A DNA stretch of 64,000 nt from the IMG/VR virus record IMGVR_UViG_3300044846_003008; one strand, given 5' to 3'. This DNA is from a virus. The notes below the pieces were generated by a model. That model saw nothing but the letters and a program-made list of their open reading frames with translations, did no database searches and was not told the origin of the DNA. How positions within the stretch are numbered: position 1 is the first letter of the stretch; every line of letters begins with the position of its first letter. This document shows, in pieces, positions 15,601 to 32,996 of the stretch. Made by a program: the position numbers and the translations under genes.

Positions 15601-18600
15601 TTAATCACCCCCATAGATGGCATTGGGAATATATTTGCCCCATCATCTGATTCAACAAATACTGTCCAAGGATTAATCCTTAAATCCCTATTAATATTAT
15701 TAGCATCAAACGTTTTAACACCCGTAATTGACGCACTATCAACATATTGTAATGAAACACCGTAATCATTCACACCATTCTGAATGTCACCATTAGTATA
15801 TCCTGAAAAAACATTATATCCTTGATAAAACACATTGAAGTCGTTAATAACTTTAGGATAAAATCCTGTGTTAATTAATGTTGTCGTGTCAGTACCAAAT
15901 GTACTAGTTTTTTCTAAAACAATATCTATAGTTCCTCCATTAACTGAGAAAGTATAGTTTTTAGTTTTTGCTGATGTTACAGGGTCGAAATTGGTAACAT
16001 AATCAAAATTTTTCCAAGCATTATCTAAAATATCAACACCATCATTTACGTATCGTTTATAACGATGCCAAACTGAACCTAACTTAACAATCCAAGCATA
16101 AGGTAACTTATGTAGTGCTCCGAATTTTTTCAATCCCGCAAAAATATAATCAAGGTCTAAGGTTGTTCCCGCATCATATTTACGATTTCGTTCTCTTAAT
16201 GTCGCTAATGGTAAACTATTCAAAAATAGATACGCCGCAGAGACATAAGGTGTCTTATCATAATTTCTAAAATTTAACACCCCCTCTTGGATTGAGTTCA
16301 CAAAATAAGGTGTGTTTAACATAGATATTGTTTGTTTTGAATCAACATATCCACTATAATTGGCATAATATAAATCACCCTCAGTTATGATTTGATTTTC
16401 AGGTTTTCTGTTACTATAAAAATCTTTAAATGTCGCACTATCTTCAGGTGCCGGTGTCGTAATCGTCCCCATATGAACAAAGTTCGTGATTGGGTAAGAC
16501 GAATCATTTATTGTAAAACTTGTGATTGTTTTATATTGTTTATCAAACGATAAAGTTTTTGTTGTATTAAATGCGTCACGACTTAACGATATTGAACCAC
16601 CATTCGATAAATTATTCTTACACCAAGTAGTATCAATAAATGGGTAAGTATCTAAAACATCAAACGAATTACTTGTTGTTGACCCGGTTAAATAATCAAT
16701 GAATGAATCCTCTTTACTTAAACTTATCATAGGTTTAGATAATGGATTCTCCATAACTTCCTCATCAATAAATAAAAAGTTATCAGATTGTGATAGTTGT
16801 TTAATATAAGGTGTATTGTAGATACCTCGGATATAATTTTGCCAGCTAACACCAACACCCTGATTAGACATATGTTCTAACACTTGGATAAAGTTTTGAG
16901 AATTTAATGAGTATTCTTTTAATTTTTTGATTAAAAATGGATTATCATTTGACAAACTTTCTTTAATATTAATAACCTCACTTTCAGCAATTAAATTTGC
17001 AGTACTATCCGCGGCTGATACAAAACTATTGGTTCTGTTTAACCTTGAATAGTTTGTTAAGAAAATAATTCTTTCCAATAATTCGTAGAAAAATTTAACC
17101 TCCTCTTTATTTTGGAACACCGTGTTAGAGATTGGGAATTCAATTGCGTTTAAAGTAATTCTATTAACATCGGTTACTTCATTAAACTTTGGTGACGCTA
17201 ATTGAGGTTCTGACGCTCTCGCAGTATACCCTTTCATAAACTCCTCAACAAACTCAATTTCAGGCCACACATTTAATAAATGACCATTTGTTACTCCGAC
17301 AACATCATTGTCACCAGGATATCTATGTTCAAATTTTTCGTGACCATCTTCACCACTTGTAGTTATCATATAAGTCGGCCAAGGATATACAGGTAGTAAA
17401 TTATTAACACCCGAACTAAGATTATCAGGGTTAGCATTCGAAACAGTATTCTCAAATATTGGTTTTTTTCTCAAAGGATTTAATCGTTCTTCCCAAGCAG
17501 TTGAGTGAACATCATCCATTAAACGTAGAAACGCTTCACCATTGGCAAAAATCACCGCAAGAACATTTCTAATATTAGGAACAAACCCAATACCATTATC
17601 ACTACTTTGTAATAATTTAGCCAACGCATTAGTTAAATCATCTTGTATTTTTTCTCTCCATTTACTTACATCCGCAGCAATTTGTTCAATCTTGTCATTA
17701 AAACTATTTTTACCCTGAAAATAAAACCAATCAAATTTTGGTACAGGATTACCATCTTTAAGAACTATGGTTTGGTCATTTAAATATTTTTTAGCAACTA
17801 ATTCCGCTTGGAATTTAGTCAACTCTTCATTACTCGGCTCTGTTTTAGACCCTTTAACTTGTCGATAGGTCTCTTTTAAGTTTAATTGTTTTTCAGTAAA
17901 TGATATTTCAAAAATACTTTCTTTAATGTTTACAGGTATACTAGAATTGGTTGTCTTACCATCAATAGTGTATTTACCTTCAACACCTAATGTTTCATTT
18001 AAAGATAATATTTTATTACATTCCGTAACAATCTTTTTTAATTCGGTTATTGCGTTATTTCTTTCATTTGGTGTAAATTCAGGTTTAAAGGTGTAAATTT
18101 TAAGAGTATTTGATTGACCTGTAGCCGTTTTAACTATTGTTGTTGATGTACCATTAGTTAACGAATTTAAATTACCCGACACCGGATTATCAATTATTAA
18201 AAAATTGACTTTATCCATATACTTGTCAACCCAACACACTTTATCATATAGAAAAATTTGGCTTTTATAATCATTCAGTTTCTTTTGATATTCCTCAACT
18301 TTAGTTAATGGGTCCATATTTTGTTTAGTAAATGAATCCAAAATATTTTTGATAAAATTCTCAAGATTGTTTCTCATTCTAGCAATGGTCAACTCAGGAA
18401 AATCATCAGGAATCATTCCTTTTGTTTTATACTCAGTATAGACTTCCTTAATTTTCCCATAACCTTTCGTCGCAATAACATCATTAACTTCTGTTAAATT
18501 ACCAGGTCCACCTGTTGTTGGTTTCACCGAGTATCTTGAGGTATACATATGTGGAACTGCCAATAAATAACCCATTGACACTTCAGCTATCGCACTAAAT

Positions 18601-19301: not shown

Positions 19302-19614
19302 AATAAAAGAAATGTGTCTCTAATTGATTGTTATAATCCTGTAATGAAGCTACTAAAGGAAATGGAATTGTCAATATAGAACCATCACTTATGTTCCATT
19401 CTTGACCACCAAAATTAGGATTAGCGGACATAATTAACCAACCAAAATATGGAGTACCATAATATTGTTGTGACATTTTATCTAATCTTGATTGTCCAAC
19501 TTTGTAAATATACCTCTTGTCGGTACTTTTACTCGGTATATTAACATAAGGAACCACAGTTTGTTCCCCATCTATTATGAAGTTGTTATATCGGTTATAA
19601 TATTGTCTACCCAT
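19291..19614 (-). CDS. LysM / tail-X-like baseplate wedge protein (gp53-like)
   Basis: 'YIYKVGQSRLDKMSQQYYGTPYFGWLIMSANP...DGSILTIP' is a LysM-like pattern. Confidence 0.85.
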   Translation of the reverse strand: MGRQYYNRYNNFIIDGEQTVVPYVNIPSKSTDKRYIYKVGQSRLDKMSQQYYGTPYFGWLIMSANPNFGGQEWNISDGSILTIPFPLVASLQDYNNQLETHFFYYGR

Positions 19615-19616
19615 AA

Positions 19617-22600
19617 TTAATTAAATTTAATTTTACCATCAAAGGTTTCTAATTTATTGGTTAAAGACGGGTCCCCTTTATATAAATTCGTTAAATCTGT
19701 TTTTTGTTGAGCCTCTTTAGCGGCATCAGGAACTGTAGTGAAATTAACAATCCTTGACTTACCTTTCGTATATAGTATCTCATCAATACCTTTAGTGTAT
19801 TTTTTAAACTCAGATGTGTTCTTAAACTTATCTAAAACTTTATCCTCAGCTTTTATTTCCTCTTTATATAAATCAACTAAATAATCCATAACATCATCAA
19901 ACACTTTAGCTAATTTTTTAGGTTTTTTAATCGTTGCGATATTTGGTGTGATAATTCTTTTTGTAAAGTCTTCGACTTTATTTTTATCAGTAAAAATTCT
20001 ACCAACTAAAATAAAGAAACGTGCGAATTCGGTAGGTTCACCTTTAAATGCGGTTTCTGAAAAGAAATCACCATCAGCAGGGTATGGTGGTGGTATTATC
20101 GCGTTTGTATCAGCTAATAAAGTATAATACTCATTCAACGCTAATTTAAGTTTACCATAATCATTGGCCATATCAGCAAATTCACCCCCACTAAGATTGT
20201 AAATTTTTAATTCACCATTATCTAATATTTTACCATCAGTTTTATTATTAACAAAATTCATTTTTCTGATGTCTTGAACATAGTCTTGTTGAGCGGTCCC
20301 AATTTTAGTATTAGTAATAGTACTAATGTCACTTGATATTGAACTTTTTAAACTATTAACGTATTTGATTAAATTATCTTTAATCACACTTAAAGTGGTA
20401 TTATCATTAAATCCTTCATCAACCAATAAAGTAATTATTGGATGAGTTCCCGATAGTATATCATTTAAAACCAATTCAAATAAACCATTTAAATCATCTT
20501 GGAAATCAGGTTTACCAAAGATTTTAACATCACCACCATTACCATCTTCAATAACCGTCCCACCTGAGAAATTTCGTTTGTTACTCACTAATTGTAACAT
20601 ACCATAGTTAGTTTGTTTTTGAATTTCTTCAATTGAATTAAAGATATTGGTAAAATACGTTTTACTATCTTCCAACACTTTATCCATAATTTTCATATAA
20701 CTCATTTCACCTGTTTCACCACTCGGTGTTAAAGGGATTGTGTTTTTAATTTCACCAATCGTATTTCCAGCGTCATTACTTTGTTGTGCCGCCGCAGTAT
20801 TGTTAACTGTTACAGGTGGTTGTTGGGCAATAATCGCATCTACAACCATTTTATCTAACGCTGAAGTATCTTCAGTCCAAGTCGCTCTTTCATCATATAT
20901 CTCAGTATTACCATAGTAATTAAATGATAACGCATTTTGTAATTGTTCAACAGGTTTTGCTAACCCCATACCACCAATCATCTTAAATGATAAACTAACT
21001 TTAGCAATCATAGGTTGAACACCAATACCTTCAGGGTTCATATCATAGATTAACGGGTCATAAGTTATAGATAATGTCTCAGGGATAATTTTAGTGTGGT
21101 AGAAGTCACCAATACGTAATACCAATACGGGTGGTGCACCAAACGAAGTATTAACCGCGTCTGAAACTTTAGGTTTACCGTCACTACCGATAATAGGAAT
21201 AGTTTCCCCCGGTCTAACACATTGATTTAAGAAAGTTAATCGAGAATTTAAACCTTCAGGTGTTGTTGAGTGAAAAGCCGGATTAAAATATTTAATCTTT
21301 TCCTTAATCGAATCATATAACATCGGAACATTCTCTTTGATAACATCAAAATAATCACATTCTGATAATAAGTTTCTTAATATTTTTTTAGATATACCTT
21401 CTTTAATTTTTTGCTCAATTGATTTTTGAGGTTCAGGTCTTTTAATTGGTAATGTTTCGGTATTTCCATTTGTGTTAGTAACCACAACATCAGGTTTAAG
21501 TGTTGTTGTCGTCGTAACAGGAGCCGGTGTCACCGTTATACTTTTTACTTTAACTCTACGACAAGCCATTGCGTTAGTCGCAAAAACTTGTGAAATTGCA
21601 GTCACTTTACCATTTTTATCTTTAATATCAACAGTACAATTAACATCAGTTCCATTACCTGAATCAACAGTCGTTCCTGTAGTTCCATTAGCACCTGTTT
21701 CCACACTTGTTTTTGGAATTACGGTTTGTTCACCCGAACCTTTAGATAATTCAATCTTAATAGTTCCTTTAGTGAAAAACTCATCCAATTTTTTATCACC
21801 AATGTTTTTACTCTTCAAAAATTTAGTAACAATATCAAGTCGTCTTTCAGATAACGCTTTGTTATACGGAACCGTTGCCGTAGCCGACGCAGAACCTTCC
21901 ATTACTATTTTAATAGTTCCAAGTCCTTTAGATAATATGTCGTAAGCGTCTGTAATGAAGTTCTTATCCCCACCAGCAAATAAGTTATAATTACTTTTTA
22001 TAACCGTATCAAAAAATGGTTTAACATTTCGGTTCACATCACCGGCATTAAACGCCGATTCCGAATTTTTAACATATTTTTCAATATTAGTATCAGAAGT
22101 ATATGAATCATAAGTTGACTGATACTCTTCAGTAGTTGTTGTATTTGGGTTTTTACCCGGAATGTCATTTTCAAAATAAAACGCAAAATCCAAGTATTTG
22201 TTTTCAAAATCTTGTATTGATGAATCAGGAACAACTGTTTGGTCGGTATTTGATGCCGCAACATCAGCACTTCCTGTTCCTGCGTTATTTGAATTGTCTT
22301 TAGGGATTTGTTTATTAATCTCACCAATAATTTCTTTATCCGTTAATTGCGGATTACTTAAAATTTCTTGATAAGTATACAAATCCTTAGTTGGGATAGT
22401 ATTGAATTTAATAGCTAATTTGTAGATATCGAATTTAACACATCCCGCGAAAAATGAATCAATAATTGAATCAATACGTTCTTTTGCTTGTCCTTTCAAT
22501 TGTTTCTCAACCACCGTATTCATAACTGACGGGTGGTCAACAATAATTTTCCAAGACAACGAACCCGTTCTACTTGTTTCTTTATATGTATAAATTGGTT

Positions 22601-24653
22601 CAGGACGACCCAAGAAACTTTGTGAGTTCCAAGACGCACTACTTGAATCCGAAAATTGTAAATCATAAGGTGGGAACCACATAACTCTACCCCCATTTGG
22701 ACCTTTCTCACAAACAGGTAGTTCATCATAAGTGTAACCCGGTCTACTTGATGTTCTCCAAGCCAAGTTCTCAATCGAGAACATATATTTTTTAGCGTAA
22801 CCACCACGACCATTAGCATCGTCTGCAATAATATTAGTTGACCCAGGATTTCTAAGTGGAGCGATATTTAAATTGAACGTGTTATCTAACACTGAGTTTG
22901 TAAATCTTCTACCTGACGTTGTAATACCATCAGTCTTTTGTAAATCAGCATAAGTGTAATATGGAGTATCCTTTGTAAATACACGACAATACTCAATACC
23001 TTTTTCCCCACCTGTAGTATCATCTTTATACGATACCACTTGTGAACCTTTTGTCATTTCTTTATAACCATCGTGAAAAACTTTACTCACTTGGTTCATT
23101 GCATTACCGACGTGTTTTAATCGACTAATACCCGTAACATTATCCGCAGAATCAATAATTCTTTGAGTGTTATCTAATATAGAGTTTTCTTTAAAATCAA
23201 CATTAGTTGATTCTGATTTATTATATTGACTACTTATTTGATTAAATTCTTCATCTTTACTACCTGAACCACCACCCGGTGTTGCTTTAAAACCAGCGTT
23301 AGGTTTGTATTTTGGTGAAGTCCAAACTAAACCACCATCAATACCACCACCATTACTTAATGATTTACCCGCTAAACCAAAGTTTAATCGACCATCATTA
23401 CCTTCAAATAAAATACCCATTTCAGACGGACCATAAACAGGTGTTTGAACTTGTTCTCCGTAAGGATTTACAGGTATCTGATTTGGGGGTGAAGTAATCG
23501 AACTTGGCTCCGCATTCACACTACCAACGTAGTAACCACCGGCTAAAGTCCCATTTGGATTTATCAAACTAAGAGCTAAATTAGCAATCGCTTGACCAAT
23601 CCCCAATATACCACCAAAATCTTTTTTATAACCCGGTTGATATCTATTATAATCTAAGTTGTTGAATAACGCAGACCTTTGACCATTACCCGTGTTCGCT
23701 AAAAATATTTGTGACGGATTTCTTTTAATATTTAATATTGGACCTAAGAAACCTCCCGTTAATTGATTAACAACATTTAACGCATTTGACGTTTGTTGTG
23801 TTTGTAGACCACCCTTAGTATTTTCATCGAAATAATCTCCAGGGATAAATGATACAGGCCAATAAGCACCCGATATTCTTGTTGCGAAATCAAACGCCGC
23901 AGTTACAGGTGATTCGGGAACCGTAATCCTCCAATTACGATAAATAAGAGGTTCTTTTCCCGCTGCCAATAAACTAGCTTCAAACGGGTCAGATAGTGAC
24001 TCTAAATTAACCTTACCAACCGTATTTTGTAATATCTCTAAATTAATCCTTTCTTGAAATAAAAAGTTCAATTGTTTCGCACCTAATTTAGCTATGAATG
24101 AATCTTGAGATAATGACCCATCACTACCTGTCGGGTTATTCGATAATAAGATTTCATAAGGTGAATATATCGAAGGAACAAATGTGGTTAACCCATAAGG
24201 TAGAAAATAATTAGGAGTACTAATCGGATTTTCAATTACGTTATAAACATAGTTATAACCCCCACTTGGTATGAATAGGTTTTTTACCCCCGGTGACGTT
24301 GGAGATAAATTTAGGTATAAATTATTACTTAGTAGTAATACACTTTGATTTGGGGAATAAGGTCCCTGATTAGGTATTACAGGTAATAACGGACCATTGT
24401 AAGTTATATTAAGATTAAAACCCCCATCTGGCCCATAGGCATTTAAAGGATATAATTGTTGTACGAACGGTCCATTAGATATCAAACCATCAGGTGAATC
24501 TACCACGGGGGATTGACTTAAAACTACCTCATAGTTTAATGGACCTGACGGTGGGGTATAAACACCTGTAACCGTATACGTTGATAAGTTTTTGGCCATC
24601 AACGCGTCTCTAAACGATGAGGTTGACGCAAATGATAAAGTACTATTCGGCAT
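19617..24653 (-). CDS. Tail tube initiator (gp48/gp54-like) protein with an inserted OmpA-like domain
   Basis: 'WFPPYDLQFSDSSSASWNSQSFLGRPEPIYTYKETSRTGSLSW' and 'PPVLVLRIGD...SITYD...QPMIAKVSLSF' form tube-initiator halves. They flank 'FYFEND...EGSASAT...YNKALSERRLDIV...GSGE...RRVKV' (OmpA C-terminal-like). Confidence 0.7.
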   Translation of the reverse strand: MPNSTLSFASTSSFRDALMAKNLSTYTVTGVYTPPSGPLNYEVVLSQSPVVDSPDGLISNGPFVQQLYPLNAYGPDGGFNLNITYNGPLLPVIPNQGPYSPNQSVLLLSNNLYLNLSPTSPGVKNLFIPSGGYNYVYNVIENPISTPNYFLPYGLTTFVPSIYSPYEILLSNNPTGSDGSLSQDSFIAKLGAKQLNFLFQERINLEILQNTVGKVNLESLSDPFEASLLAAGKEPLIYRNWRITVPESPVTAAFDFATRISGAYWPVSFIPGDYFDENTKGGLQTQQTSNALNVVNQLTGGFLGPILNIKRNPSQIFLANTGNGQRSALFNNLDYNRYQPGYKKDFGGILGIGQAIANLALSLINPNGTLAGGYYVGSVNAEPSSITSPPNQIPVNPYGEQVQTPVYGPSEMGILFEGNDGRLNFGLAGKSLSNGGGIDGGLVWTSPKYKPNAGFKATPGGGSGSKDEEFNQISSQYNKSESTNVDFKENSILDNTQRIIDSADNVTGISRLKHVGNAMNQVSKVFHDGYKEMTKGSQVVSYKDDTTGGEKGIEYCRVFTKDTPYYTYADLQKTDGITTSGRRFTNSVLDNTFNLNIAPLRNPGSTNIIADDANGRGGYAKKYMFSIENLAWRTSSRPGYTYDELPVCEKGPNGGRVMWFPPYDLQFSDSSSASWNSQSFLGRPEPIYTYKETSRTGSLSWKIIVDHPSVMNTVVEKQLKGQAKERIDSIIDSFFAGCVKFDIYKLAIKFNTIPTKDLYTYQEILSNPQLTDKEIIGEINKQIPKDNSNNAGTGSADVAASNTDQTVVPDSSIQDFENKYLDFAFYFENDIPGKNPNTTTTEEYQSTYDSYTSDTNIEKYVKNSESAFNAGDVNRNVKPFFDTVIKSNYNLFAGGDKNFITDAYDILSKGLGTIKIVMEGSASATATVPYNKALSERRLDIVTKFLKSKNIGDKKLDEFFTKGTIKIELSKGSGEQTVIPKTSVETGANGTTGTTVDSGNGTDVNCTVDIKDKNGKVTAISQVFATNAMACRRVKVKSITVTPAPVTTTTTLKPDVVVTNTNGNTETLPIKRPEPQKSIEQKIKEGISKKILRNLLSECDYFDVIKENVPMLYDSIKEKIKYFNPAFHSTTPEGLNSRLTFLNQCVRPGETIPIIGSDGKPKVSDAVNTSFGAPPVLVLRIGDFYHTKIIPETLSITYDPLIYDMNPEGIGVQPMIAKVSLSFKMIGGMGLAKPVEQLQNALSFNYYGNTEIYDERATWTEDTSALDKMVVDAIIAQQPPVTVNNTAAAQQSNDAGNTIGEIKNTIPLTPSGETGEMSYMKIMDKVLEDSKTYFTNIFNSIEEIQKQTNYGMLQLVSNKRNFSGGTVIEDGNGGDVKIFGKPDFQDDLNGLFELVLNDILSGTHPIITLLVDEGFNDNTTLSVIKDNLIKYVNSLKSSISSDISTITNTKIGTAQQDYVQDIRKMNFVNNKTDGKILDNGELKIYNLSGGEFADMANDYGKLKLALNEYYTLLADTNAIIPPPYPADGDFFSETAFKGEPTEFARFFILVGRIFTDKNKVEDFTKRIITPNIATIKKPKKLAKVFDDVMDYLVDLYKEEIKAEDKVLDKFKNTSEFKKYTKGIDEILYTKGKSRIVNFTTVPDAAKEAQQKTDLTNLYKGDPSLTNKLETFDGKIKFN

Positions 24654-24693: not shown

Positions 24694-26577
24694 TTATGCT
24701 TTAGAAGGAACTTTAGTTTGGTTATTTAATGACGGAGTATCTTTAATCATTTTTAAAAGAGATTCTTTAAATTCAGGACTTCTCATTAAATCATCAAACG
24801 CCCTTTGGTCCATACCGGTAGGTATTTTAACATTAATATCCATATCCAATTTCCCTGAGTGGAACGTTTCTCCTTTAGCGTTAGCATTTTCAGGTTTTTG
24901 ATAATCAATAATTTCTTTATATTTTCCCGAATAATTTTTTAATTCAGTATTGATTGGTGCGGCCATTGGTTTGGTATCAACACTTTTAGGTTTACTATCG
25001 GTTCCTATATGTTCAGCTTTAGCTACCGTCCCTATAAGTCCTTCAGTTGCATAAGCCCCTATTTGGTCATATTTATTTTCACTTTCTTTTAACTTAATAC
25101 CTTCGGCATTTAAATTAGCCGTCACGGCTTTAATTGTCTTTTCAAATGTAATTGCACTATCACTAAGTATTTTACCCGCAACACCGGCAACTTCAGTAAA
25201 TGAACCTTCACCTTTAGCGAATTTTAATAAGGAATCACCAACCGCGGTTAAATCTTCATCAAGACCTTTCCTCATTTTACCAATATCCATTTCTTTATTA
25301 AATGAATCAGTAATGGCTTTAACATAGTTCCCACTCGAAACTAACATTTGTTCACCTTGTTTAGTTCCCGCAAATGCTCGACCCGTTTTACCTTTTAACG
25401 ACTCAGTATTTGCCGCAATTTTTTCAGAAACTGTTAATTGTTCTTGTAATAATTCCTCATTAGATTTCGGAGTATTATCTTTAATGATTTTATTTAATTT
25501 TTCAGGGTCATTTGCATATTTCGCTAACGCCTCATTCATATCAACCATTTGTCCATCAACGTTAATTTTGATTTCACCATCTTTCATTGATGAAACATTC
25601 GCTAATAATTTTTTCTGGTCTTCATTAATAAAATCAGGGAATTTGATTTTACTCATTTTAATATCCATTTCAGCTGCTGCCTTAGACATTTTAGCGAATT
25701 CCGCTTGAGGCATACCCGCGGCATCAGCCAATTCTTTCATCCTACGAATACTTCCAGGTGCTATTTTAACGTTACCTTTCTCATCTAATTCAGTTAAACT
25801 CGCACCCATTTTTGCGATAGACTGTTGGAAAGCTTCAGGGTCATTTTGTGACATATTCATCAACCTCATCGGGTCTAATAATTCACTTTGAGAAACACCT
25901 AATCTTTGGAACGCCGCCGCCATTTCAATAGCACCTTCAGGATTAAATGCCTTATCAACCGACGCTAAAATAGTACTCATATTAACACGTAATCCCGCCG
26001 ACGTTGCGGCCATTCTCGCTAAACCTTCAACACCACCCGAAAAATTGTGAGTGTCTAACGCCTCCATATTACCTAAAACCGCCGACGAAACCGCTTGAGC
26101 ACTAACACCCAAAGACCTCGCGGTGTCCATTACTTTTTTAGTTTCTTCACCGATATTGTGCATATTATAACCGGCATCAATAAACTTTTTAGTTAAAACA
26201 TCAGCTTCTTGTCCTGATACTTTAGCCGCCGCATAAATGTCGGTAAACACTTCCTTAGTTGCAATAACATTAGTACCTAAAGCACCAATTAAACCTTTTT
26301 GTATTGTTTCAATGTCAGACATTTTACCCCCTAACTTTGCAACGTCAGAATACGCATCCCCTAACGACGCTTTAATCGCCACCGCCGATTCACGGCCAAG
26401 ACCCATATTTTTGGAAAGATTCGAATAAACCTGGTCCATTTCATCAACGACTTTAGCAATCTCAGAAGCACTTGTATTACTTTTAATAATACTTTTGATT
26501 TCCGCTAAAATAGCATCAACACCACTAACCGCACTTTTTGATTTTTCTTCGTCATCACCAGCAAATAAATAACCCAT
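24694..26577 (-). CDS. Tape measure protein
   Basis: Ala/Gly/Lys/Met-rich helical 627-aa protein directly after the tube and chaperone genes. Confidence 0.75.
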   Translation of the reverse strand: MGYLFAGDDEEKSKSAVSGVDAILAEIKSIIKSNTSASEIAKVVDEMDQVYSNLSKNMGLGRESAVAIKASLGDAYSDVAKLGGKMSDIETIQKGLIGALGTNVIATKEVFTDIYAAAKVSGQEADVLTKKFIDAGYNMHNIGEETKKVMDTARSLGVSAQAVSSAVLGNMEALDTHNFSGGVEGLARMAATSAGLRVNMSTILASVDKAFNPEGAIEMAAAFQRLGVSQSELLDPMRLMNMSQNDPEAFQQSIAKMGASLTELDEKGNVKIAPGSIRRMKELADAAGMPQAEFAKMSKAAAEMDIKMSKIKFPDFINEDQKKLLANVSSMKDGEIKINVDGQMVDMNEALAKYANDPEKLNKIIKDNTPKSNEELLQEQLTVSEKIAANTESLKGKTGRAFAGTKQGEQMLVSSGNYVKAITDSFNKEMDIGKMRKGLDEDLTAVGDSLLKFAKGEGSFTEVAGVAGKILSDSAITFEKTIKAVTANLNAEGIKLKESENKYDQIGAYATEGLIGTVAKAEHIGTDSKPKSVDTKPMAAPINTELKNYSGKYKEIIDYQKPENANAKGETFHSGKLDMDINVKIPTGMDQRAFDDLMRSPEFKESLLKMIKDTPSLNNQTKVPSKA

Positions 26578-26602: not shown

Positions 26603-26636
26603 AATACACCAAAGGTTAATTTTCCTTTGGTGTATT
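26603..26636. terminator. 13-bp perfect inverted repeat overlapping the frameshift-ORF stop and the tape-measure promoter motif
   Basis: AATACACCAAAGG (26603-26615) and CCTTTGGTGTATT (26624-26636). Confidence 0.6.
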
Positions 26637-26780
26637 ATCTTCAATAATTTTATCAATTAAATATTTTCGTATATATGTGGGTATTTTTAAATACTCACTA
26701 TATTGGGTTCTCAAAAATCGACTTAAAACATAAAACTCATCAATTAATTGTTTGCTATATTCAGAAGAAAGGACGAAAAA
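26616..26780 (-). CDS. Tail assembly chaperone C-terminal extension (lambda gpT / T4 gp51-like), probably reached by +1 frameshift
   Basis: Not in the ORF track. Open +1 frame FFVLSSEYSKQLIDEFYVLSRFLRTQYSEYLKIPTYIRKYLIDKIIEDNTPKEN* (TAA at 26618-26616) has no ATG and fills the gap between the chaperone and tape measure genes. Confidence 0.7.
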   Translation of the reverse strand, partial: FFVLSSEYSKQLIDEFYVLSRFLRTQYSEYLKIPTYIRKYLIDKIIEDNTPKEN

Positions 26781-27513
26781 ACTCCACCCCAAAGGATACG
26801 TTAAACGTAACCAATTCTCCTGACGGGGCGTAAACTTGTCTATTTAAATCTAGTGAAGGTTGGTTATCTCTCAAATATTTTCTAATGTATTTAGAATCCA
26901 TTATAGGTAACGTACTAACAAATTGAGCAATAGCTGCAGGGTCATTACTACCATCAACTTCAACAATTTGTTTATTTAATCTCCAAGTTACTGTTGGTGC
27001 GGTCCTCCCTTTAGGATATTGTTCCGACATAACATCAATTTCAATCCCTTCATAAAAAGTCAATGGTTTTAATTTGACAGTTGAACCTGTTTTAGGTAAT
27101 TTTGTCGTAAAGATACCGTTTTCATTAGGTTCTTCTTGAGTTACTTTAATACTTAACGAGTCCAAAATTTCGGTATGTTCAAAAATTTTACCCGATTTAG
27201 GGTCAGTTAAATTAAGTGTATATTCAGGACCAAATGATGTATTTCTCAAAAAGATTAAAATCGCTTCAACATCACCATCAGTCATTTCTTCCGGTCTTAA
27301 ATCGTGTTCATAAACTTTATTTCTTAATAAAGTCATCACAATATGTTCTTTTGAATCATTATTTAATAAATAATTCTCATCTTCAGCAGTTAAATAACCT
27401 ACTTTAACCGAAGTTTTTTTTGATTTGTAGAAAATCCCCTTTGAAGGTAATTTTACCACGTCGTGAGGTAGATTAAAACCCTCCGTCGCAGCTTTTAATA
27501 AGTCAGCATCCAT
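26761..27513 (-). CDS. Tail assembly chaperone / baseplate hub assembly protein (T4 gp26-like)
   Basis: 'VKLPSKGIFY...VGYLTAEDE', 'GDVEAILIFLRNTSFGPEY', 'KLPKTGSTVKLKPLT', ends 'GVEFFRPFF'. Between tube and tape measure. Start set at MDADLL (27513) because the upstream ATG overlaps a terminator. Confidence 0.8.
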   Translation of the reverse strand: MDADLLKAATEGFNLPHDVVKLPSKGIFYKSKKTSVKVGYLTAEDENYLLNNDSKEHIVMTLLRNKVYEHDLRPEEMTDGDVEAILIFLRNTSFGPEYTLNLTDPKSGKIFEHTEILDSLSIKVTQEEPNENGIFTTKLPKTGSTVKLKPLTFYEGIEIDVMSEQYPKGRTAPTVTWRLNKQIVEVDGSNDPAAIAQFVSTLPIMDSKYIRKYLRDNQPSLDLNRQVYAPSGELVTFNVSFGVEFFRPFF

Positions 27514-27625: not shown

Positions 27626-28114
27626 TTAGTAAACTAATACACAACGGTCAGGTCTAAGTGTTGCCGTGATAGACGCGATTGCATCAGAGTTATACGCTAA
27701 TGAATCGAAGTTAACGTCAGATAACCAAGCACCTTCTAATATCCATTTTTCAACAACAACCCCTGTTGGGTCTAACATTTCCAAGTCAACATTTTTCTTG
27801 TAACCTGCAGCATAACCCATACGTCCTGTAACAGATTCCGCACATAGACGAACCCATTCCATTAATGCTTGTGAAGCTGAAGGTCCGATAGGGTCACGGA
27901 ACTTAACGTTAATTGTTCCCCAAGTAAAACGTCCCGCAACATAAGTTGACGTATTTAAAAATTGTACCTCAACCGGGTTAATAGTGATGTGTGGTCTTGA
28001 TGCCGTTTCAACGAACCATTCATTAATTCCCAAACTTGAAGGGAATCTCATTATAAACCTGTTTTGTCTTTTAGGTTCGTATGGTATCGGCATTTTCATT
28101 AATAAATCAGCCAT
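27626..28114 (-). CDS. Tail tube protein (T4 gp19-like)
   Basis: 'EPKRQNRF', 'YVAGRFTWGTINVKFRD', 'EW', 'YKKNVDLEMLDPTGVVVEKWILEGAW', 'LRPDRC'. Confidence 0.92.
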   Translation of the reverse strand: MADLLMKMPIPYEPKRQNRFIMRFPSSLGINEWFVETASRPHITINPVEVQFLNTSTYVAGRFTWGTINVKFRDPIGPSASQALMEWVRLCAESVTGRMGYAAGYKKNVDLEMLDPTGVVVEKWILEGAWLSDVNFDSLAYNSDAIASITATLRPDRCVLVY

Positions 28115-28270: not shown

Positions 28271-29089
28271 TTAATATCTTTTCTTTATTCCTCCTGCAGT
28301 TGAATAGGTCTTTATGATATTATCTGGTTCATTTTCGAAATGTCCTTTAACTTTTTCCACGTTTCTTAAATCATCATCTGAAAATCCAATTTGCGGTTCG
28401 TGATTTGCTAATTTTTTCTTTAAGAATGCTTTTTTTCTGATAAAACTTGATAGGTGTTTTACGTGGTCTACAAACTCTTTTAACGCCTTAATCTTACCTT
28501 CTTCCGGATTTGTAGCTGAACCTTCACCATACGTCACCGGATAGAATTTACAAAGGTCTAAATACTCTTGGATTAATTCTTTTTTAGATAATTCACCTTC
28601 GTCAGCCAAATCTCTATATTTTTCTAAATTTCTAACTAATTGTTCAGAATCAATTCCATTATGATTTGAAACTATTAAATTGTATACTGCGTCTCTCATA
28701 ACAGAAGGTGTGTGACCTCTAGCCGTTACAATTGAAAATATTGACCCGTTATTGATTGCCTCAACAAAATCAGGCCAAGCCGGTCCATCACTCGCGGTCA
28801 TAGAATCGACTATGAAATTTTTATCACCTGTTGTTGAAAAATATCTAAAAGGTAAATCTGCGAATCCAACAATTTGATGTCCTTCATATTCGAAAGGTTC
28901 TTTACCGATATCCATTCTATATTCCGCAAAATCTTCGGTTGACATTGGAACTTCGTTACCTTCATCATCCTGTAATATAATTTTGGTTGGCATATACATA
29001 ATATTATCATCCCAATCGAATGCGTAATATTTCATATCGGGGGTTCCGGTCTCATCAAGACCTTCTCTTAAATTTTTATATTTTTTCAT
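28271..29089 (-). CDS. HAD-superfamily phosphatase-like protein
   Basis: Motif I 'AFDWDDNI', motif II 'VTARG', motif III K in 'EGKIKAL', motif IV 'GFSDDD..N'. Confidence 0.7.
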   Translation of the reverse strand: MKKYKNLREGLDETGTPDMKYYAFDWDDNIMYMPTKIILQDDEGNEVPMSTEDFAEYRMDIGKEPFEYEGHQIVGFADLPFRYFSTTGDKNFIVDSMTASDGPAWPDFVEAINNGSIFSIVTARGHTPSVMRDAVYNLIVSNHNGIDSEQLVRNLEKYRDLADEGELSKKELIQEYLDLCKFYPVTYGEGSATNPEEGKIKALKEFVDHVKHLSSFIRKKAFLKKKLANHEPQIGFSDDDLRNVEKVKGHFENEPDNIIKTYSTAGGIKKRY

Positions 29090-29150: not shown

Positions 29151-32100
29151 TTAGATATTTTCGAAAGAAGCTCCTGTTGGAGTAATATAGAATGTGATAT
29201 CTATAAATTCTAACGCTTTAGTTGGTTTGATATAAATCTTACCTGTCATTTGATTTCTGTCTAAGTCAGCAGCATCTGAAGAAACTGTTACTCGGAAATC
29301 ATATAGACCTCTATCTCTTCTGATTGAGTCTAAGATTGGGTTAACCGCATCTAAGAAATCTTGTCTTACTTTTTGGTCGTTTTGTTCGAACAACAATCTC
29401 ACTGAAACCGCTGAAATCAATTTACGAGCTTGTAATAACAATCTTCTAACGTTGATTCTATCTAATGCCGACTCTCTAACTTGAAGAGTTTTATTACCCC
29501 AAATAACTGTTCCCACATCTGAGAAAGTCGCGATAGGGTTAATTCTACCTTTGTATAGAACGTCTCTATCTTCTTGAGTTAATTTTTTACGTGCTTTGAT
29601 AGCGTTTACGATACCTCTTGTGTAACCTGCCGCCGCGAACCAAGGGAATGCGATATTGTCTGTCAATGCCAAGTTTCTCGTCACCTCCGCAGTTGGTGGT
29701 AAATAGATTTGTGTATTGTTAACACTATCTCTTGTTAATACCCAAGGGTAGTAAGTAGCGGTGTAGTTAGAGTCGATACCTGTAGTTTCTAAATTATCAA
29801 TAGCCTCTTGTGGGTAAATTAAATCTTCAGTCACAAATGAAGGTGTGAACATTTGAGTATCAGGTGTTGTACAGATATAAACTGAATCCGCTCTATCGTT
29901 TTCAATCATATCAATAGCACTTTCAACGATATCTGAATGGTTTACATAATCAACACCCGGAGTTGCGAATACGTTGATGTTTACCGCTTCAGGATTTGCG
30001 AATGTTCTTTGTCCTAATAGGTAAGCGTAGTAGTCAGTATTACCCCAATCTTGAGTATTGTCACCAACCGTGATTTGTTTAAACGCTCCCCATCCTGTAG
30101 CCGTTGGGTATTTAACTGAAGGACAAGCCCCTTTCAAATAACCAGGTCTACCTAATACGAATCTATCTGTATTTGTTCTTGATTCTCTATAGATATCCCA
30201 TCCATCAAAACCACCTTGTACTATTAATGAGAATTTACGTGCGTAAAGTCTGTAGTATGGGTTTGATTCAACTGTTGGGTCAGAACTAAAGTTAGCATCA
30301 CCTGTAAAGAATGCGGTTGTTGCACTTGTAATTGCAGATAAAACATATTTGTTTTCTTCAGTATTCCACACTTTTTGGTAGAAAGTATTGTTAATTGTGA
30401 TACCTGACGCTCTGTTATCCATATGGAAACCTTTAGTTTTAGTATCCCACAACGCTCCCGTTGATTGAGTACAAACATCTAATGGTAATTGTTTACCTTT
30501 GTATGCCGTGAAATCAACATCATAACCAACTGTATCTGAAACACCTAAATAAGTTCTACGAACATTATCACCGTTACTTCTAATTGCGTCATCCGCACCT
30601 GAAGATAAACCAAATGGTGGGTTGTAAATTACTTCACCTGGATAATCATATTTAGTTTTATAAATAGGGAATGGTGAACGAACACCTGTATAAGTTCTTG
30701 TATCGTAACCTTCAAAACCACAAGGTAATGCGTCTATCGGAGCGTTTTCGTTAACTTCAACCATTACATATTTTGAATTCAATTGGTATTCACCGTCAGA
30801 TGTACCAATTTTTTTCGCGATGAAGTTATTTTGATTGATGTCCATAGAACAATTAGTGAATTTCTCGATAACAACCGGAGCTGAATCTGAATCATAATAA
30901 TCTCTAACTAACACATCAAAAGTACCATTTCCAAATGAAATATTTGCAATTGATATTTTAACATCCGTATTTGCCGCGTCACCATCAGCAATTGTTGTAA
31001 ATTTGAATAAACGATAAACTTCCGTTCCTCTTAATTCAGACACAACCCAAGGTGATGCTGGTGATTGGTATTTTTCTAAATAGAAACCTAATGATGTTGG
31101 GTCAGCACCTTGTCTAGCGTCAGGATATGCCTCAACTCTCGAACTTAAACCTCTAATGAAACCTTTTCTCCAAGCGTAATTTAATAATGATTGATATTTT
31201 TCTTCCACAAATAAAGGAACTGAGCTTCTATCTTTTGAGAAGTTAGTTGAACCCAATACTTTACTAATGTATTTTGAGTCAGAATTTGATAATGATGTTT
31301 CAAATGAAAACTGAGTCCCTGTTCTACCTGTTGCATTAATAACGAAAGTTGAGTATGGGTTTTTAGTTACACCTGAATAAACACCTGAAGTATTTAGACT
31401 AACTTGTGTTAAACCTGAAACTTCATAAACGGGCCCATTTTGACTTGAATAATCTGAAATACCTCTTGAACGTAAAGTTGCAACAACTAAATCATCATAT
31501 TCTAAGAATGGTTCACCTGATAATACAAAGAATGTACCGGTTAACACACCATCATAACAAGTTGTTGTCGAACCAACGTTCATTGTACCTGTATCACCTG
31601 TAGTTGTAGGGTCACAAGGGTTAAGGTTACTAACACATACTGTCCAATTTGTTGTAACAGTGTTATCGTCAGAAATTAATTTATAACTTAAACAAGTTGT
31701 GAAATCATTATCAGTTGAGTCACTTACTTGTATAACGTTATTTATTGTTACATCTGTAGTACAAGCACTGAATGTTGATATTACTTGTGTTATGTCAACG
31801 TTTGTTGGAACATAAACATAAATTGTGTTAGTATTATAGTTAATATTACCATCACAACTTCCGATACTCAATACGTTAATAGTTGCGTTTAATGCGGAAC
31901 CACCTTGAGAGATAGTTACTACATCACCAACTTGATAACCTGTACCTGCTTTGTTAATTGTTACACCTGTAACAACATTACTTCCATTTACCGCAATATT
32001 AACGGTTAATCCAATACCTGAACCACCTGTTGTTGCAACATTAGTTCCGTTAACATAACTTGAACCTGAAGCATTTATACTTGAAGTAAGGACGTTACCA

Positions 32101-32996
32101 TTAACTGAATAATTGTAAAATGATGCACAATTTGAAAGTGAAGATGTTTCAGTTAATCCTGACACTGTTGTGTAAAAAGAGGAACCTGAATATACCCCAC
32201 CACCTAAGTTGTCAAATAAAGCGTAATACCAAGAGTCGTTTGAAGGTGCTGAATAATCTATTGTGTCAGAGTTCATTGTATCCGCTTGGAAAACATTAGT
32301 TCTTGCAGTGTACCCCAAAGAAGTGTTATCATCATAATAAACACCAGGAACTGCTCCATAATAATAAACAGAACTTTCTTCTTTAGAATTATCAAGGATA
32401 ATATCGTAAACTTGTTGTTTTAATTTCGTGTCGATACTACTAATACTACCATCAAAATTTTCGTAAGGTAGATTCAATTTGTTTAAAAGTTCTTGAGGTA
32501 AGTCAGTTGTTGTGAAACCAACACTATTAGGACTATTAGTACATCCTGTAAATGGTAATTCAAAATCAACTTCATAATATTGAACACATTCAGACACACA
32601 ATTTGCGGTAATTGCACTTAAACAATAAAACTGAATTGTTGATGGGTTCACGTTTGCTTTGGTTGTAATTGACCAAGATGGACCCGCATCATAACCAGAA
32701 AGTCCTAAGATTCTAGTTACGAACAATTGATTAGATTGTTGTAAATAAGATTTAGCGATGTATGATGCCTCATATTTAGGGATTTGTGTATTTACAAATT
32801 TCTCAGGTGAAGTACCTCCGAAGAATGTTGAGAATTCGTCAAAATTACGGATAAAGATTGGTTCGAATGCGGGACCTTTTAACGTCTCCCCAACGATACC
32901 CAATGTAGTTACCCCTACACTTTGTGCTACGAAACTCAAATCAACTTCTGAAGTATAAACTCCCGGTGAAACAAATACTTTACTGTTTGTTGCCAT
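29151..32996 (-). CDS. Tail sheath protein (T4 gp18-like) with large insertion domains
   Basis: 'SPGVYTSEVDLS', 'GETLKGPAFEP', 'TYYPW', 'PWFAAAGYTRG', 'INPI', 'WGNKT', 'RINVRRLL', 'LFEQND', 'IKPTKALEFI'. Confidence 0.96.
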   Translation of the reverse strand: MATNSKVFVSPGVYTSEVDLSFVAQSVGVTTLGIVGETLKGPAFEPIFIRNFDEFSTFFGGTSPEKFVNTQIPKYEASYIAKSYLQQSNQLFVTRILGLSGYDAGPSWSITTKANVNPSTIQFYCLSAITANCVSECVQYYEVDFELPFTGCTNSPNSVGFTTTDLPQELLNKLNLPYENFDGSISSIDTKLKQQVYDIILDNSKEESSVYYYGAVPGVYYDDNTSLGYTARTNVFQADTMNSDTIDYSAPSNDSWYYALFDNLGGGVYSGSSFYTTVSGLTETSSLSNCASFYNYSVNGNVLTSSINASGSSYVNGTNVATTGGSGIGLTVNIAVNGSNVVTGVTINKAGTGYQVGDVVTISQGGSALNATINVLSIGSCDGNINYNTNTIYVYVPTNVDITQVISTFSACTTDVTINNVIQVSDSTDNDFTTCLSYKLISDDNTVTTNWTVCVSNLNPCDPTTTGDTGTMNVGSTTTCYDGVLTGTFFVLSGEPFLEYDDLVVATLRSRGISDYSSQNGPVYEVSGLTQVSLNTSGVYSGVTKNPYSTFVINATGRTGTQFSFETSLSNSDSKYISKVLGSTNFSKDRSSVPLFVEEKYQSLLNYAWRKGFIRGLSSRVEAYPDARQGADPTSLGFYLEKYQSPASPWVVSELRGTEVYRLFKFTTIADGDAANTDVKISIANISFGNGTFDVLVRDYYDSDSAPVVIEKFTNCSMDINQNNFIAKKIGTSDGEYQLNSKYVMVEVNENAPIDALPCGFEGYDTRTYTGVRSPFPIYKTKYDYPGEVIYNPPFGLSSGADDAIRSNGDNVRRTYLGVSDTVGYDVDFTAYKGKQLPLDVCTQSTGALWDTKTKGFHMDNRASGITINNTFYQKVWNTEENKYVLSAITSATTAFFTGDANFSSDPTVESNPYYRLYARKFSLIVQGGFDGWDIYRESRTNTDRFVLGRPGYLKGACPSVKYPTATGWGAFKQITVGDNTQDWGNTDYYAYLLGQRTFANPEAVNINVFATPGVDYVNHSDIVESAIDMIENDRADSVYICTTPDTQMFTPSFVTEDLIYPQEAIDNLETTGIDSNYTATYYPWVLTRDSVNNTQIYLPPTAEVTRNLALTDNIAFPWFAAAGYTRGIVNAIKARKKLTQEDRDVLYKGRINPIATFSDVGTVIWGNKTLQVRESALDRINVRRLLLQARKLISAVSVRLLFEQNDQKVRQDFLDAVNPILDSIRRDRGLYDFRVTVSSDAADLDRNQMTGKIYIKPTKALEFIDITFYITPTGASFENI

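What the first reader, a model, noticed from the sequence alone, without database searches (positions are those of the whole stretch)
26616..26790. Probable +1 programmed ribosomal frameshift (UUU_UUU_CGU_C) in the tail assembly chaperone
Seen: the chaperone ends GAG TTT TTT CGT CCT TTC TTC TGA (shift site 26784-26772). The -1 frame closes within about 12 codons. The +1 frame stays open for about 54 codons to TAA at 26616, has no ATG (only an upstream TTG), and fills the gap before the tape measure gene. Known: G/GT-type chaperone frameshifts at this position are usually -1 (lambda) or -2 (Mu). UUU_CGU is the +1 shift motif of influenza PA-X and some other RNA viruses. tRNA-Phe can re-pair from UUU to UUC. 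The extension resembles T4-like gp51, suggesting a gp26-gp51 fusion by frameshift.
Basis: partly seen in the sequence, partly recalled or inferred. Interest (0 to 1): 0.75.

Follow-up and report, generated by a model that had tools for sequence, protein, structure and literature searches.

The report
Plus-one frameshift in tail chaperone gene
One tail-assembly gene of this uncultured lake-water giant phage very probably makes a short and a long protein because some ribosomes slip one base forward at UUU-UUU-CGU, next to a rare codon and just after a conserved RNA hairpin; phage T4 encodes the matching pair as two separate genes.

Summary
The gene between tail tube and tape measure (27513-26761, minus strand, 250 aa) ends GAG TTT TTT CGT CCT TTC TTC TGA. 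A start-less +1 frame then runs 53 codons to TAA 26616.

The protein belongs to the T4 gp26/gp51 family (PF12322, phrog_150). Its three best structural matches are the three solved tail assembly chaperones.

All 114 sequences that reach the site (113 related loci and the window) keep TT[TC] TTT CGN, a frame-0 stop 6 or 8 codons from the first Phe codon, and an open +1 frame of 50-54 codons under purifying selection.

- The A-site codon is CGG or CGC in 53 of 60 distinct sequences. Neither codon occurs among 557 other Arg codons of the same genes.
- Three distinct sequences have TTC TTT, which argues against a -2 slip or transcriptional slippage.
- Two have no ATG, GTG or TTG before the site.
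- A two-helix hairpin with covariation ends 3 nt before the site. The eight earlier notes shown for the +1 site do not mention it.

Best reading: programmed +1 ribosomal frameshift (confidence 0.78). No experiment exists, and homology of the extension to the gp51 tail is only weakly shown.

This scan has already reported the same +1 site, and -1 versions, on other DNA. I found no paper describing it.

The parts
26761..27513 (-). Frame-0 gene: short form, 250 aa, T4 gp26/gp51-family hub/tail assembly chaperone
   Evidence: PF12322 scores 25.4 bits against a cut-off of 24.5, and phrog_150 gives 1.9e-10. Homologues are 250-253 aa. The model has pLDDT 82, and its best fold matches are 3FGX, 2OB9 and 3KLU at Z 5.3-5.7.
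26785..26830 (-). Conserved 5' RNA hairpin. The outer helix pairs 26830-26824 with 26791-26785 (GCCCC/GGGGU core). The inner helix pairs 26812-26806 with 26800-26794.
   Evidence: Window MFE is -18.1 kcal/mol, z -2.12. On 55 distinct sequences 83.4% of cells pair against 42-58% for slid controls, with 72 double-change cells against 4-20, and 0 of 500 shuffles reach the covariation score. The outer helix is in the MFE fold of 55 of 55. Pair 26827/26788 joins two third-codon positions: the third bases of the Ala GCC and Gly GGG codons, which are invariant in all 55 aligned sequences. These codons are otherwise uncommon in these genes.
26790..26792 (-). TTG in the +1 frame, the only canonical start candidate for an independent small ORF (rival reading)
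   Evidence: Present in 58 of 60 distinct relatives and absent, with no other start, in 2. It lies in the 3' strand of the outer helix.
26773..26781 (-). Shift site UUU (E site, 26781-79), UUU (P site, 26778-76), CGU (A site, 26775-73). tRNA-Phe re-pairs from UUU to UUC (26777-75).
   Evidence: TT[TC] TTT CGN is present in all 114 sequences that reach the site (113 loci and the window). CGN is CGG 34, CGC 19, CGT 5 and CGA 2 of 60 distinct, never AGR. CGG and CGC are each 0 of 557 Arg codons elsewhere in these genes.
26761..26772 (-). Frame-0 tail CCT TTC TTC and stop TGA
   Evidence: The frame-0 stop falls 6 (53) or 8 (7) codons after the first Phe codon in 60 distinct sequences. Residues 243-245 and 247-250 of the model have pLDDT under 50.
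26616..26777 (-). +1-frame extension (53 codons from TTC, then TAA 26618-16). It would form the C-terminal domain of the 298-aa long form.
   Evidence: Open for 50-54 codons in 60 of 60 distinct sequences. Invariant P-T-Y-x-R shows 4, 4, 2 and 4 synonymous codons. Folded alone it gives pLDDT 90.7 and three helices. It aligns with gp51 204-249 at E 0.013.
27626..28114 (-). Tail tube gene (context, upstream)
   Evidence: phrog_4542 tail tube protein, 5e-31.
24694..26577 (-). Putative tape measure gene (context, downstream), assigned by position only
   Evidence: No family hit here. The gene in the same place is annotated as tape measure in Flavobacterium phage immuto.

Best explanation
The gene encodes a gp26/gp51-type tail/hub assembly chaperone in two forms that share their first 246 residues.

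Most ribosomes read GAG UUU UUU CGU CCU UUC UUC UGA and release the 250-aa short form. A minority pause with peptidyl-tRNA-Phe on the second UUU while the little-used CGN codon waits in the A site. The tRNA re-pairs one base forward on UUC. Decoding then continues with GUC in the +1 frame for 52 more codons, giving a 298-aa long form with the junction ...GVEFF-VLSSEYSK.

By analogy with lambda G/GT, the shared body would bind the tape measure, and the small three-helix extension would recruit another tail component.

What is shown:
- the anatomy
- its conservation
- purifying selection on the extension
- the rare-codon bias
- the hairpin

What is inferred:
- the slip itself
- its efficiency
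- a stimulatory role for the hairpin (refolding behind the ribosome and favouring forward movement)
- the binding partners
For: 1. Conservation. All 114 sequences that reach the site (113 loci and the window) have the motif. The other 4 of the 118 examined end before it. Among 60 distinct complete sequences the frame-0 stop comes after 6 or 8 codons, the +1 frame is open 50-54 codons and the -1 frame closes after 8-36 codons. The top 120 of 4268 protein homologues are all 250-253 aa and cover only 82-83% of the read-through product.

2. The extension is a real coding sequence. Invariant residues show synonymous variation. The extension folds alone at pLDDT 90.7.

3. Hungry codon. The A-site Arg is never AGR. 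It is CGG or CGC in 53 of 60 sequences, while elsewhere in the same genes CGG is 0, CGC 0 and AGA 437 of 557 Arg codons. In the +1 frame the N of CGN makes V, A, D or G, so the constraint lies on CG, not on that residue.

4. Direction. Three distinct sequences (4 loci), and the distant phage GXN1, have UUC UUU CGN. Only a UUU-to-UUC re-pairing remains possible there.

5. No independent start in 2 of 60 sequences.

6. Hairpin with covariation ending 3 nt before the E-site codon. An upstream hairpin next to the E site stimulated +1 frameshifting on 70S ribosomes in vitro (PMC6321510, abstract and sections 2.1 and 3.1).

7. Precedents (PMC5009743, passages). UUU_Ynn is +1-prone in bacteria. UCC_UUU_CGU is the influenza site. 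The G/GT frameshift is conserved in long-tailed phages 'except T4'.

8. T4 has a short and a long paralogue of this family.

9. Independent DNA and RNA-library contigs carry the same T6 without gaps.
Against: No protein, ribosome-profiling or reporter data exist.

A TTG is available in the +1 frame in 58 of 60 distinct sequences, and an ATG as well in 9.

No in-frame fused homologue was found. None of the 58 hits of the extension profile carries a gp26-like body. A word-based search of the extension among proteins of 163-522 aa found only an unrelated protein.

Five of those 58 hits (P0127, P0136, P0149, P0163, P0172) have N-terminal parts of their own, of about 40-60 aa. The extension may therefore be a separate gene in some relatives.

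Homology of the extension to the gp51 tail is weak.

For the hairpin, two of the five whole-structure measures do not exceed shuffles: pairs with a double change (138 of 500 shuffles as high) and pair types (497 of 500). The helix core is invariant. I drew the inner helix by eye from 23 of the 55 sequences. Its register differs between subgroups. It ends 3 nt short of the E site, whereas the published constructs abut it.

The window's own A-site codon, CGT, is only moderately rare (6.4 per 1000 against 18.2 for AGA). The host and its tRNA pool are unknown.
Confidence: 0.78

Rival explanations
1. The +1 ORF is an independent small gene (58 aa) started at TTG 26792-90. It overlaps the end of the chaperone gene by 32 nt. 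The local nucleotide conservation would come from double coding.
For: TTG is present in 58 of 60 distinct sequences, and also in immuto and Mel-JY01, where the ORF is annotated from TTG. Gene callers list such small proteins. Five of the extension-profile hits have their own N-terminal parts. No in-frame fusion was found.
Against: Two of 60 distinct sequences (L093, L094) have no ATG, GTG or TTG between the upstream +1-frame stop and the site, yet keep the site and the extension.

Upstream of FF the variation is synonymous or conservative in frame 0 but changes W to L and S to T or N in the +1 frame.

The TTG sits in the 3' strand of a conserved G+C helix. The long ORFs of the window have A/T-rich leaders without a Shine-Dalgarno sequence.

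This reading does not explain the exclusive CGN with its CGG/CGC bias, nor the frame-0 stop fixed a few codons after the site.
Confidence: 0.09
2. The long form arises on the T6 run in one of two other ways. Either a -2 ribosomal slip (UUU to UUU, adding one more Phe), or RNA polymerase slippage that drops one U from the transcript.
For: T6 is present in 57 of 60 distinct sequences, and Mel-JY01 has T7. A -2 re-pairing on U6 would be perfect. Contigs cannot show minor RNA variants.
Against: Three distinct sequences (4 loci) and GXN1 have TTC TTT, a run of only three T, with everything else kept. Immuto has TTT CTT TGG. The contigs of two RNA libraries carry unchanged T6 with 0 gaps. A rare A-site codon and a 5' hairpin are features of ribosomal +1 shifting. 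Six T is short for efficient polymerase slippage (recalled, not tested).
Confidence: 0.07
3. The break is an assembly or sequencing indel, or a decaying gene, and has no function.
For: Homopolymer runs are prone to indel errors.
Against: The same arrangement occurs in 60 distinct sequences from many samples, and in 4 runs of 4 studies without gaps. The extension is under purifying selection.
Confidence: 0.01

Closest known systems
Lambda gpG/gpGT (and P2 E/E+E') tail assembly chaperone frameshift
   Same: The gene lies directly before the tape measure. A low-level shift near the 3' end gives a short and a long form with a common N-terminal body. This arrangement is conserved in long-tailed phages (PMC5009743, passages). 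The best fold matches here are the solved chaperones 2OB9, 3KLU and 3FGX (they are called TACs in PMC9603447, passages).
   Different: The direction is +1 at UUU_CGN with a hungry codon, not a -1 tandem slip on X_XXY_YYZ. The protein is about twice as long (250 aa), possibly with two chaperone-like halves. There is no sequence similarity. The stimulator candidate lies 5' of the site.
Phage T4 gp26 (208 aa) and gp51 (249 aa), hub assembly chaperones
   Same: Same family: PF12322 and phrog_150 hit both T4 proteins and the window protein. gp26 ends at profile position 235, about where frame 0 ends here (about 232). gp51 carries a further tail of about 45 aa, like the long form. The extension aligns end to end with gp51 204-249.
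   Different: T4 uses two divergently transcribed paralogous genes and no frameshift. The genes are not next to the tube gene. The homology of the tail is only weakly supported (E 0.013; no PHROG hit).
E. coli prfB (RF2) +1 frameshift, CUU_UGA_C with an internal Shine-Dalgarno duplex
   Same: A single P-site tRNA slips +1 while the A site waits. The E-site codon pairs weakly. A duplex just upstream acts as stimulator. Hairpins can partly replace the SD duplex on 70S ribosomes (PMC6321510).
   Different: The A site holds a rare sense codon, not a stop. The upstream duplex would be an mRNA hairpin ending 3 nt before the E-site codon, not an mRNA-rRNA helix that abuts it. The purpose is two products, not autoregulation.
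UUU_Ynn +1-prone sites in bacteria, and influenza A PA-X / amalgavirus UUU_CGN
   Same: The same four-base core, UUU_C, followed by CGN, with tRNA-Phe re-pairing on UUC (PMC5009743, passages; the amalgavirus motif is recalled).
   Different: Those are eukaryotic RNA viruses or unprogrammed bacterial errors. Here the site is in a dsDNA phage structural module, with a conserved 5' hairpin.
Other +1 shifts in phage structural genes: Listeria phage PSA cps/tsh, and the haloarchaeal myovirus HSTV-2 chaperone ('very likely +1')
   Same: +1 recoding that makes C-terminally extended tail or capsid products (PMC5009743, passages).
   Different: PSA shifts on CCC before a stop codon or a pseudoknot. The HSTV-2 site was not examined here. 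The protein families differ.

Membership tests
T4 gp26/gp51 family (Pfam PF12322 T4_baseplate; phrog_150 baseplate hub) | Significant match to the family profile over the body of the protein | tested here: met
   PF12322 scores 25.4 bits against a cut-off of 24.5. phrog_150 gives E 1.9e-10 over residues 14-247, profile positions 10-232. T4 gp26 and gp51 hit the same two models.
T4 gp26/gp51 family (Pfam PF12322 T4_baseplate; phrog_150 baseplate hub) | The long form carries a gp51-type C-terminal tail (Pfam Gp51_C, PF28602; phrog_150 positions 235-280) | tested here: inconclusive
   The extension family (63 sequences) was compared by hhalign with 8 gp51 sequences. Extension residues 3-49 align with gp51 204-249 at score 18.0, E 0.013, and 1 of 100 column shuffles scores as high. 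In the Atlas, 22 of 30 nearest hits fall in the set that carries PF28602, at score 0.94, with the family on 33% of members. The extension alone gave no PHROG hit, while the T4 tail gave 6e-24. PF28602 is not in the local libraries.
G/GT-type tail assembly chaperone | Gene lies between the tail tube (major tail) gene and the tape measure gene | tested here: met
   The order is tube 27626-28114, chaperone 26761-27513, then the 627-aa gene 24694-26577. The same order, with an annotated tape measure, occurs in Flavobacterium phage immuto.
G/GT-type tail assembly chaperone | Two overlapping frames near the 3' end with a conserved slippery site and no start for the second frame | tested here: met
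   The direction is +1, not the usual -1.
G/GT-type tail assembly chaperone | Chaperone fold | tested here: inconclusive
   Of 48,161 chains the three best are 3FGX (Z 5.7, rmsd 5.2, 90 aa, model 6-103), 2OB9 HK97 chaperone (Z 5.7, rmsd 3.2, 79 aa, model 132-220) and 3KLU (Z 5.3). Z under 8 can be a common arrangement. Foldseek found nothing at E <= 0.001, and 2OB9 had probability 0.51.
G/GT-type tail assembly chaperone | Both forms bind the tape measure, the extension binds the tube or tail protein, and both are absent from the virion | not testable with these tools
There are no proteomic data.
Programmed +1 ribosomal frameshift site | The P-site codon allows the tRNA to re-pair one base forward | tested here: met
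   UUU_C is present in all 114 sequences that reach the site (113 loci and the window).
Programmed +1 ribosomal frameshift site | A slowly decoded A-site codon | tested here: met
   By codon usage only. The site has CGG 34 and CGC 19 of 60, against 0 and 0 of 557 Arg codons elsewhere in the same genes. tRNA levels of the unknown host cannot be tested.
Programmed +1 ribosomal frameshift site | A stimulatory element | tested here: inconclusive
   The conserved 5' hairpin is shown. Its effect on shifting is inferred from PMC6321510. No 3' structure was found (z +1.88).
Programmed +1 ribosomal frameshift site | The trans-frame protein is detected | not testable with these tools
   No proteomics or ribosome profiling is available. 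The RNA data are contigs only.

The most novel reading that the evidence does not exclude
The conserved two-helix hairpin ending 3 nt before the E-site codon may be a natural 5' stimulator of +1 frameshifting that refolds during translation. It would act together with a hungry CGG/CGC codon and a weak UUU E-site codon.

In the papers I read, this mode is shown only with reporter constructs. Here it would exist in a phage whose genes lack Shine-Dalgarno leaders, so the hairpin would replace the rRNA duplex used in prfB.

If so, the gp26/gp51 family solves one problem (a fixed ratio of short to long chaperone) in three ways: a +1 slip, a -1 slip (earlier notes of this scan, not checked here), and gene duplication in T4.
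Probability: 0.4. Interest if true: 0.72.

Novelty: new variant of a known kind. Interest (0 to 1): 0.6.

Why it matters
The tail-chaperone frameshift is one of the most conserved recoding events in phages, and T4 has been named as the exception (PMC5009743). This locus suggests the T4-type family is not an exception. The gp26/gp51 family makes the same short/long pair, here from one gene by a forward slip and in T4 from two genes.

Practically, hundreds of related metagenomic phage genes are annotated as a 250-aa protein plus an orphan ORF or nothing. Annotation pipelines that look only for -1 heptamers will miss them.

Mechanistically, the site offers a compact natural test case for +1 shifting in bacteria. 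It combines UUU_C, a codon avoided elsewhere in the gene, and a 5' hairpin whose stem is written into third-codon positions.

Tried and rejected
**Natural in-frame fusions: none found.**
- The word-based search of residues 244-298 returned only P0123, an unrelated 263-aa protein whose last 16 residues equal the end of the extension.
- The extension profile, run against 1.84 billion representatives, gave 58 hits. 57 are 29-145 aa long and one is a 1282-aa repeat protein.

**Direct sequence tests that failed**
- BLASTP of the read-through product against T4 gp51 was not significant.
- hhalign of 14 read-through sequences against single T4 gp51 or gp26 was not significant. Against 8 gp51 sequences it gave E 0.52.
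- PHROGs and Pfam gave nothing for the extension alone, including the extensions of immuto, Mel-JY01 and GXN1.
- A search with the 58-aa ORF gave 3 close hits without Pfam labels.

**Structure**
- Complex prediction (extension with tube protein) was not available.
- Foldseek of the body against PDB gave nothing at E <= 0.001.
- Foldseek of the extension against BFVD gave a best E of 1.1.

**RNA**
- Rfam gave only two matches far below the gathering scores.
- No structure was found downstream of the site.
- I considered a long-range pairing of GGAGAA (26820-15) with TTCTTC (26769-64). I dropped it because the variants at the 3' side are not compensated.
- I considered GGGG or GGAG as an internal Shine-Dalgarno sequence. 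GGAG is not conserved (GGAC, GGAA, TGAC). GGGG lies 8 nt from the P codon, not the 3 nt of prfB. The genes of the window have no SD leaders.
- The three distant phages show no significant upstream structure (z +0.22, -0.51, -1.26). The hairpin is therefore established only for the window's own clade.

**Host**
- No whole genome is held for the window.
- No tRNA genes occur in the window.

**Literature**
- Searches found no report of a frameshift in gp26-like genes.
- One search was badly framed and is of no use.
Full report
**What is there**

On the minus strand the window carries a myovirus tail module:
- sheath, 29151-32996
- an unassigned 272-aa gene
- tail tube, 27626-28114 (phrog_4542, 5e-31)
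- a 250-aa gene, 27513-26761
- a 627-aa gene in the tape-measure position, 26577-24694
- a 1678-aa gene

The 250-aa gene ends GAG TTT TTT CGT CCT TTC TTC TGA. The +1 frame continues for 53 codons from TTC 26777 to TAA 26616 without any ATG. The -1 frame closes after 11 codons. Reading TTTC as one step gives a continuous 298-aa product, so the required shift is +1 or -2.

The window has 33.5% G+C, no tRNA genes, and A/T-rich leaders without Shine-Dalgarno sequences. Runs that hold it are lake-water metagenomes. No whole genome is held.

**Is it real and more than chance?**

The octamer TTTTTTCG alone is at chance level, 7 found against 8 expected.

I ran two scans of viral contigs.
- The first used seed peptides away from the site and returned 37 loci.
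- The second kept the best 80 of 584 relatives. One of its two seeds was the frame-0 peptide at the site. That biases the protein sequence but not the choice of codons.

Of the 118 sequences examined (117 loci and the window), 114 reach the site and all 114 carry GGGG-N2-GA-N-TT[TC]-TTT-CGN-CC. The other 4 end before it.

Among the 60 distinct complete sequences:
- the frame-0 stop comes 6 (53) or 8 (7) codons after the first Phe codon
- the +1 frame is open for 50-54 codons
- the -1 frame closes after 8-36 codons

The top 120 of 4268 protein homologues are all 250-253 aa and cover 82-83% of the read-through product.

Contigs of two DNA runs and two RNA libraries cross the site with no gaps. 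The 40-nt block around the site also attracts contigs of otherwise diverged phages: depth rises to 69-86 against 4-16 beside it. This is not an assembly error.

**The extension is a coding sequence**

In 23 distinct sequences the invariant residues P, T, Y and R of the motif P-T-Y-x-R-K-Y use 4, 4, 2 and 4 different codons. Folded alone from 19 sequences, the extension gives three helices at pLDDT 90.7.

Upstream of the two Phe codons the pattern reverses. The variable bases are third positions of frame 0 (GTG/GTT, GAG/GAC/GAA), and they change W to L and S to T or N in the +1 frame. Frame 0 is therefore the constrained frame up to the site, and the +1 frame after it.

**Mechanism**

The A-site codon is always CGN: CGG 34, CGC 19, CGT 5, CGA 2 of 60. 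It is never AGR. The remaining 557 Arg codons of the same genes are AGA 437, CGT 60, CGA 31, AGG 29, CGG 0 and CGC 0. In the +1 frame the free N gives V, A, D or G.

That is the signature of a selected slow codon next to a shift-prone UUU_C. UUU_Ynn is known to be +1-prone in bacteria, and UCC_UUU_CGU is the influenza site (PMC5009743, passages).

Three distinct sequences (4 loci) have TTC TTT CGN, and so does Streptococcus phage GXN1 at 30% protein identity (GAA TTC TTT CGT CCC). Flavobacterium phage immuto has TTT CTT TGG, and Microcystis phage Mel-JY01 has TTT TTT TGG. All have the homologous extension in the +1 frame. A -2 slip or polymerase slippage on a T run cannot work on TTCTTT, so +1 is the general solution.

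No stable structure follows the site (z +1.88).

**The upstream hairpin**

This is the part the earlier notes I was shown do not mention. I saw only their few-line summaries, not the full notes.

The 46 nt from 26830 to 26785 form an outer helix (core GCCCC/GGGGU) around an inner helix.
- On 18 distinct rows, 90.9% of cells pair against 44-49% for slid controls, and 31 cells carry changes on both sides against 0-5.
- On the wider set of 55 distinct sequences the figures are 83.4% against 42-58%, 72 against 4-20, and a covariation score of 0.243 against 0.05-0.09. No shuffle out of 500 reaches the observed value for these measures.
- Against this, the number of pairs with a double change (6; 138 of 500 shuffles as high) and the number of pair types (16; 497 of 500) are not above shuffles.
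- The helix core never varies. I drew the inner helix by eye from the first 23 sequences. Its register shifts by a bulge in one subgroup.

The outer helix appears in the MFE fold of 55 of 55 sequences (-12.0 to -21.5 kcal/mol; mean z -1.74; 20 of 55 below -2). For the window the fold is -18.1 kcal/mol with z -2.12.

The pair 26827/26788 joins two third-codon positions, the third bases of the Ala GCC and Gly GGG codons. Both codons are invariant in all 55 aligned sequences. Elsewhere in these genes they make up roughly a tenth of Ala and of Gly codons. In one search, GCC is 111 of 545 and GGG is 132 of 815 over the 60 sequences. Those totals include the site's own copies.

The helix ends 3 nt before the E-site codon. 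In a 70S in vitro system an upstream hairpin next to the E site gave about 60% of the +1 stimulation of the prfB internal SD duplex (PMC6321510, abstract and sections 2.1 and 3.1). A stimulatory role here is my inference.

The three distant phages show no significant upstream fold.

**What the protein is**

It matches PF12322 (25.4 bits, cut-off 24.5) and phrog_150 (1.9e-10). T4 gp26 (208 aa) and gp51 (249 aa) both belong to these models, and they are paralogues (BLASTP 2e-6). gp26 ends at profile position 235 and gp51 at 280. In T4 they are divergent genes. Leiman et al. list both as hub assembly chaperones (PMC3004832, passages). One record names a gp51 homologue 'tape measure protein assembly chaperone'.

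The frame-0 model has pLDDT 82 and pTM 0.74. Its last eight residues, which span the shift site, are mostly below pLDDT 50 (243-245 and 247-250). Of 48,161 chains the three best matches are 3FGX (model residues 6-103), 2OB9 (132-220) and 3KLU (131-220), at Z 5.3-5.7. These are the three solved tail assembly chaperones (PMC9603447, passages). The Z values are middling, and Foldseek found nothing significant.

The link of the extension to the gp51 tail is weak:
- no PHROG hit
- hhalign aligns the extension family's residues 3-49 with gp51 204-249 at E 0.013, and 1 of 100 column shuffles scores as high
- 22 of 30 nearest Atlas hits fall in the set that carries Pfam Gp51_C

**Rivals**

An independent start at the TTG remains possible. 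The TTG is present in 58 of 60 sequences. Five extension-like proteins have N-terminal parts of their own. No in-frame fusion was found.

Against that rival:
- two sequences have no start codon at all
- the TTG lies inside the helix
- the rare-codon bias is unexplained
- the frame-0 stop is fixed close to the site

I put +1 frameshifting at 0.78, an independent start at 0.09, a -2 slip or transcriptional slippage at 0.07, and an artefact at 0.01.

**Prior work**

This scan has already reported the same UUU_UUU_CGU site in freshwater giant phages, and -1 versions in T4-like phages, on other DNA. Those notes are not independent evidence. Five literature searches found no paper describing a frameshift in gp26-like genes. 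Atkins et al. state that the G-T frameshift is conserved in long-tailed phages 'except T4', and mention one 'very likely +1' chaperone case in an archaeal myovirus.

**Not done**

The complex test was unavailable.

Noticed in passing
window 26619-26666 (end of the extension); protein P0123: A 263-aa metagenomic protein with an unrelated body ends with 16 residues identical to the end of the extension (KYLIDKIIEDNTPKEN). It is either a chimeric contig or a recombination joint in a relative.
   Followed up: partly
window 26872-26898 and 26658-26681: The last helix of the chaperone body (DSKYIRKYL, residues 206-214) and the conserved core of the extension (PTYIRKYL, residues 278-285) are near-repeats. 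T4 gp51 has NKYIKKY at 187-193. The extension may mimic or replace that helix.
   Followed up: no
window 26751-26793: In two DNA runs the depth over this 40-nt block rises to 69-86, against 4-16 beside it. Contigs of otherwise diverged phages match only this block. It is an island of nucleotide conservation.
   Followed up: partly
proteins P0127, P0136, P0149, P0163, P0172: Extension-like domains preceded by unrelated N-terminal parts of 40-60 aa. In some relatives the extension may be a separate gene. The DNA context could not be fetched.
   Followed up: no
window 28271-29089 (-): A 272-aa gene between sheath and tube has no Pfam or PHROG family.
   Followed up: no
window 29151-32996 (-): The tail sheath is unusually long (1281 aa). 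Only its last 300 residues or so match sheath families.
   Followed up: no
window 12636-24653 (-) and 50953-59469 (-): Very large genes of 2221, 1678 and 2838 aa. The first two have no PHROG match at all. The third matches only phrog_15511, of unknown function.
   Followed up: no
L039 3273-3509 (Microcystis phage Mel-JY01) and L038 3339-3449 (Flavobacterium phage immuto): Public records annotate the +1 ORF as a separate hypothetical protein. In Mel-JY01 it starts at a TTG. In immuto only its last third is annotated. Neither record annotates a frameshift.
   Followed up: partly
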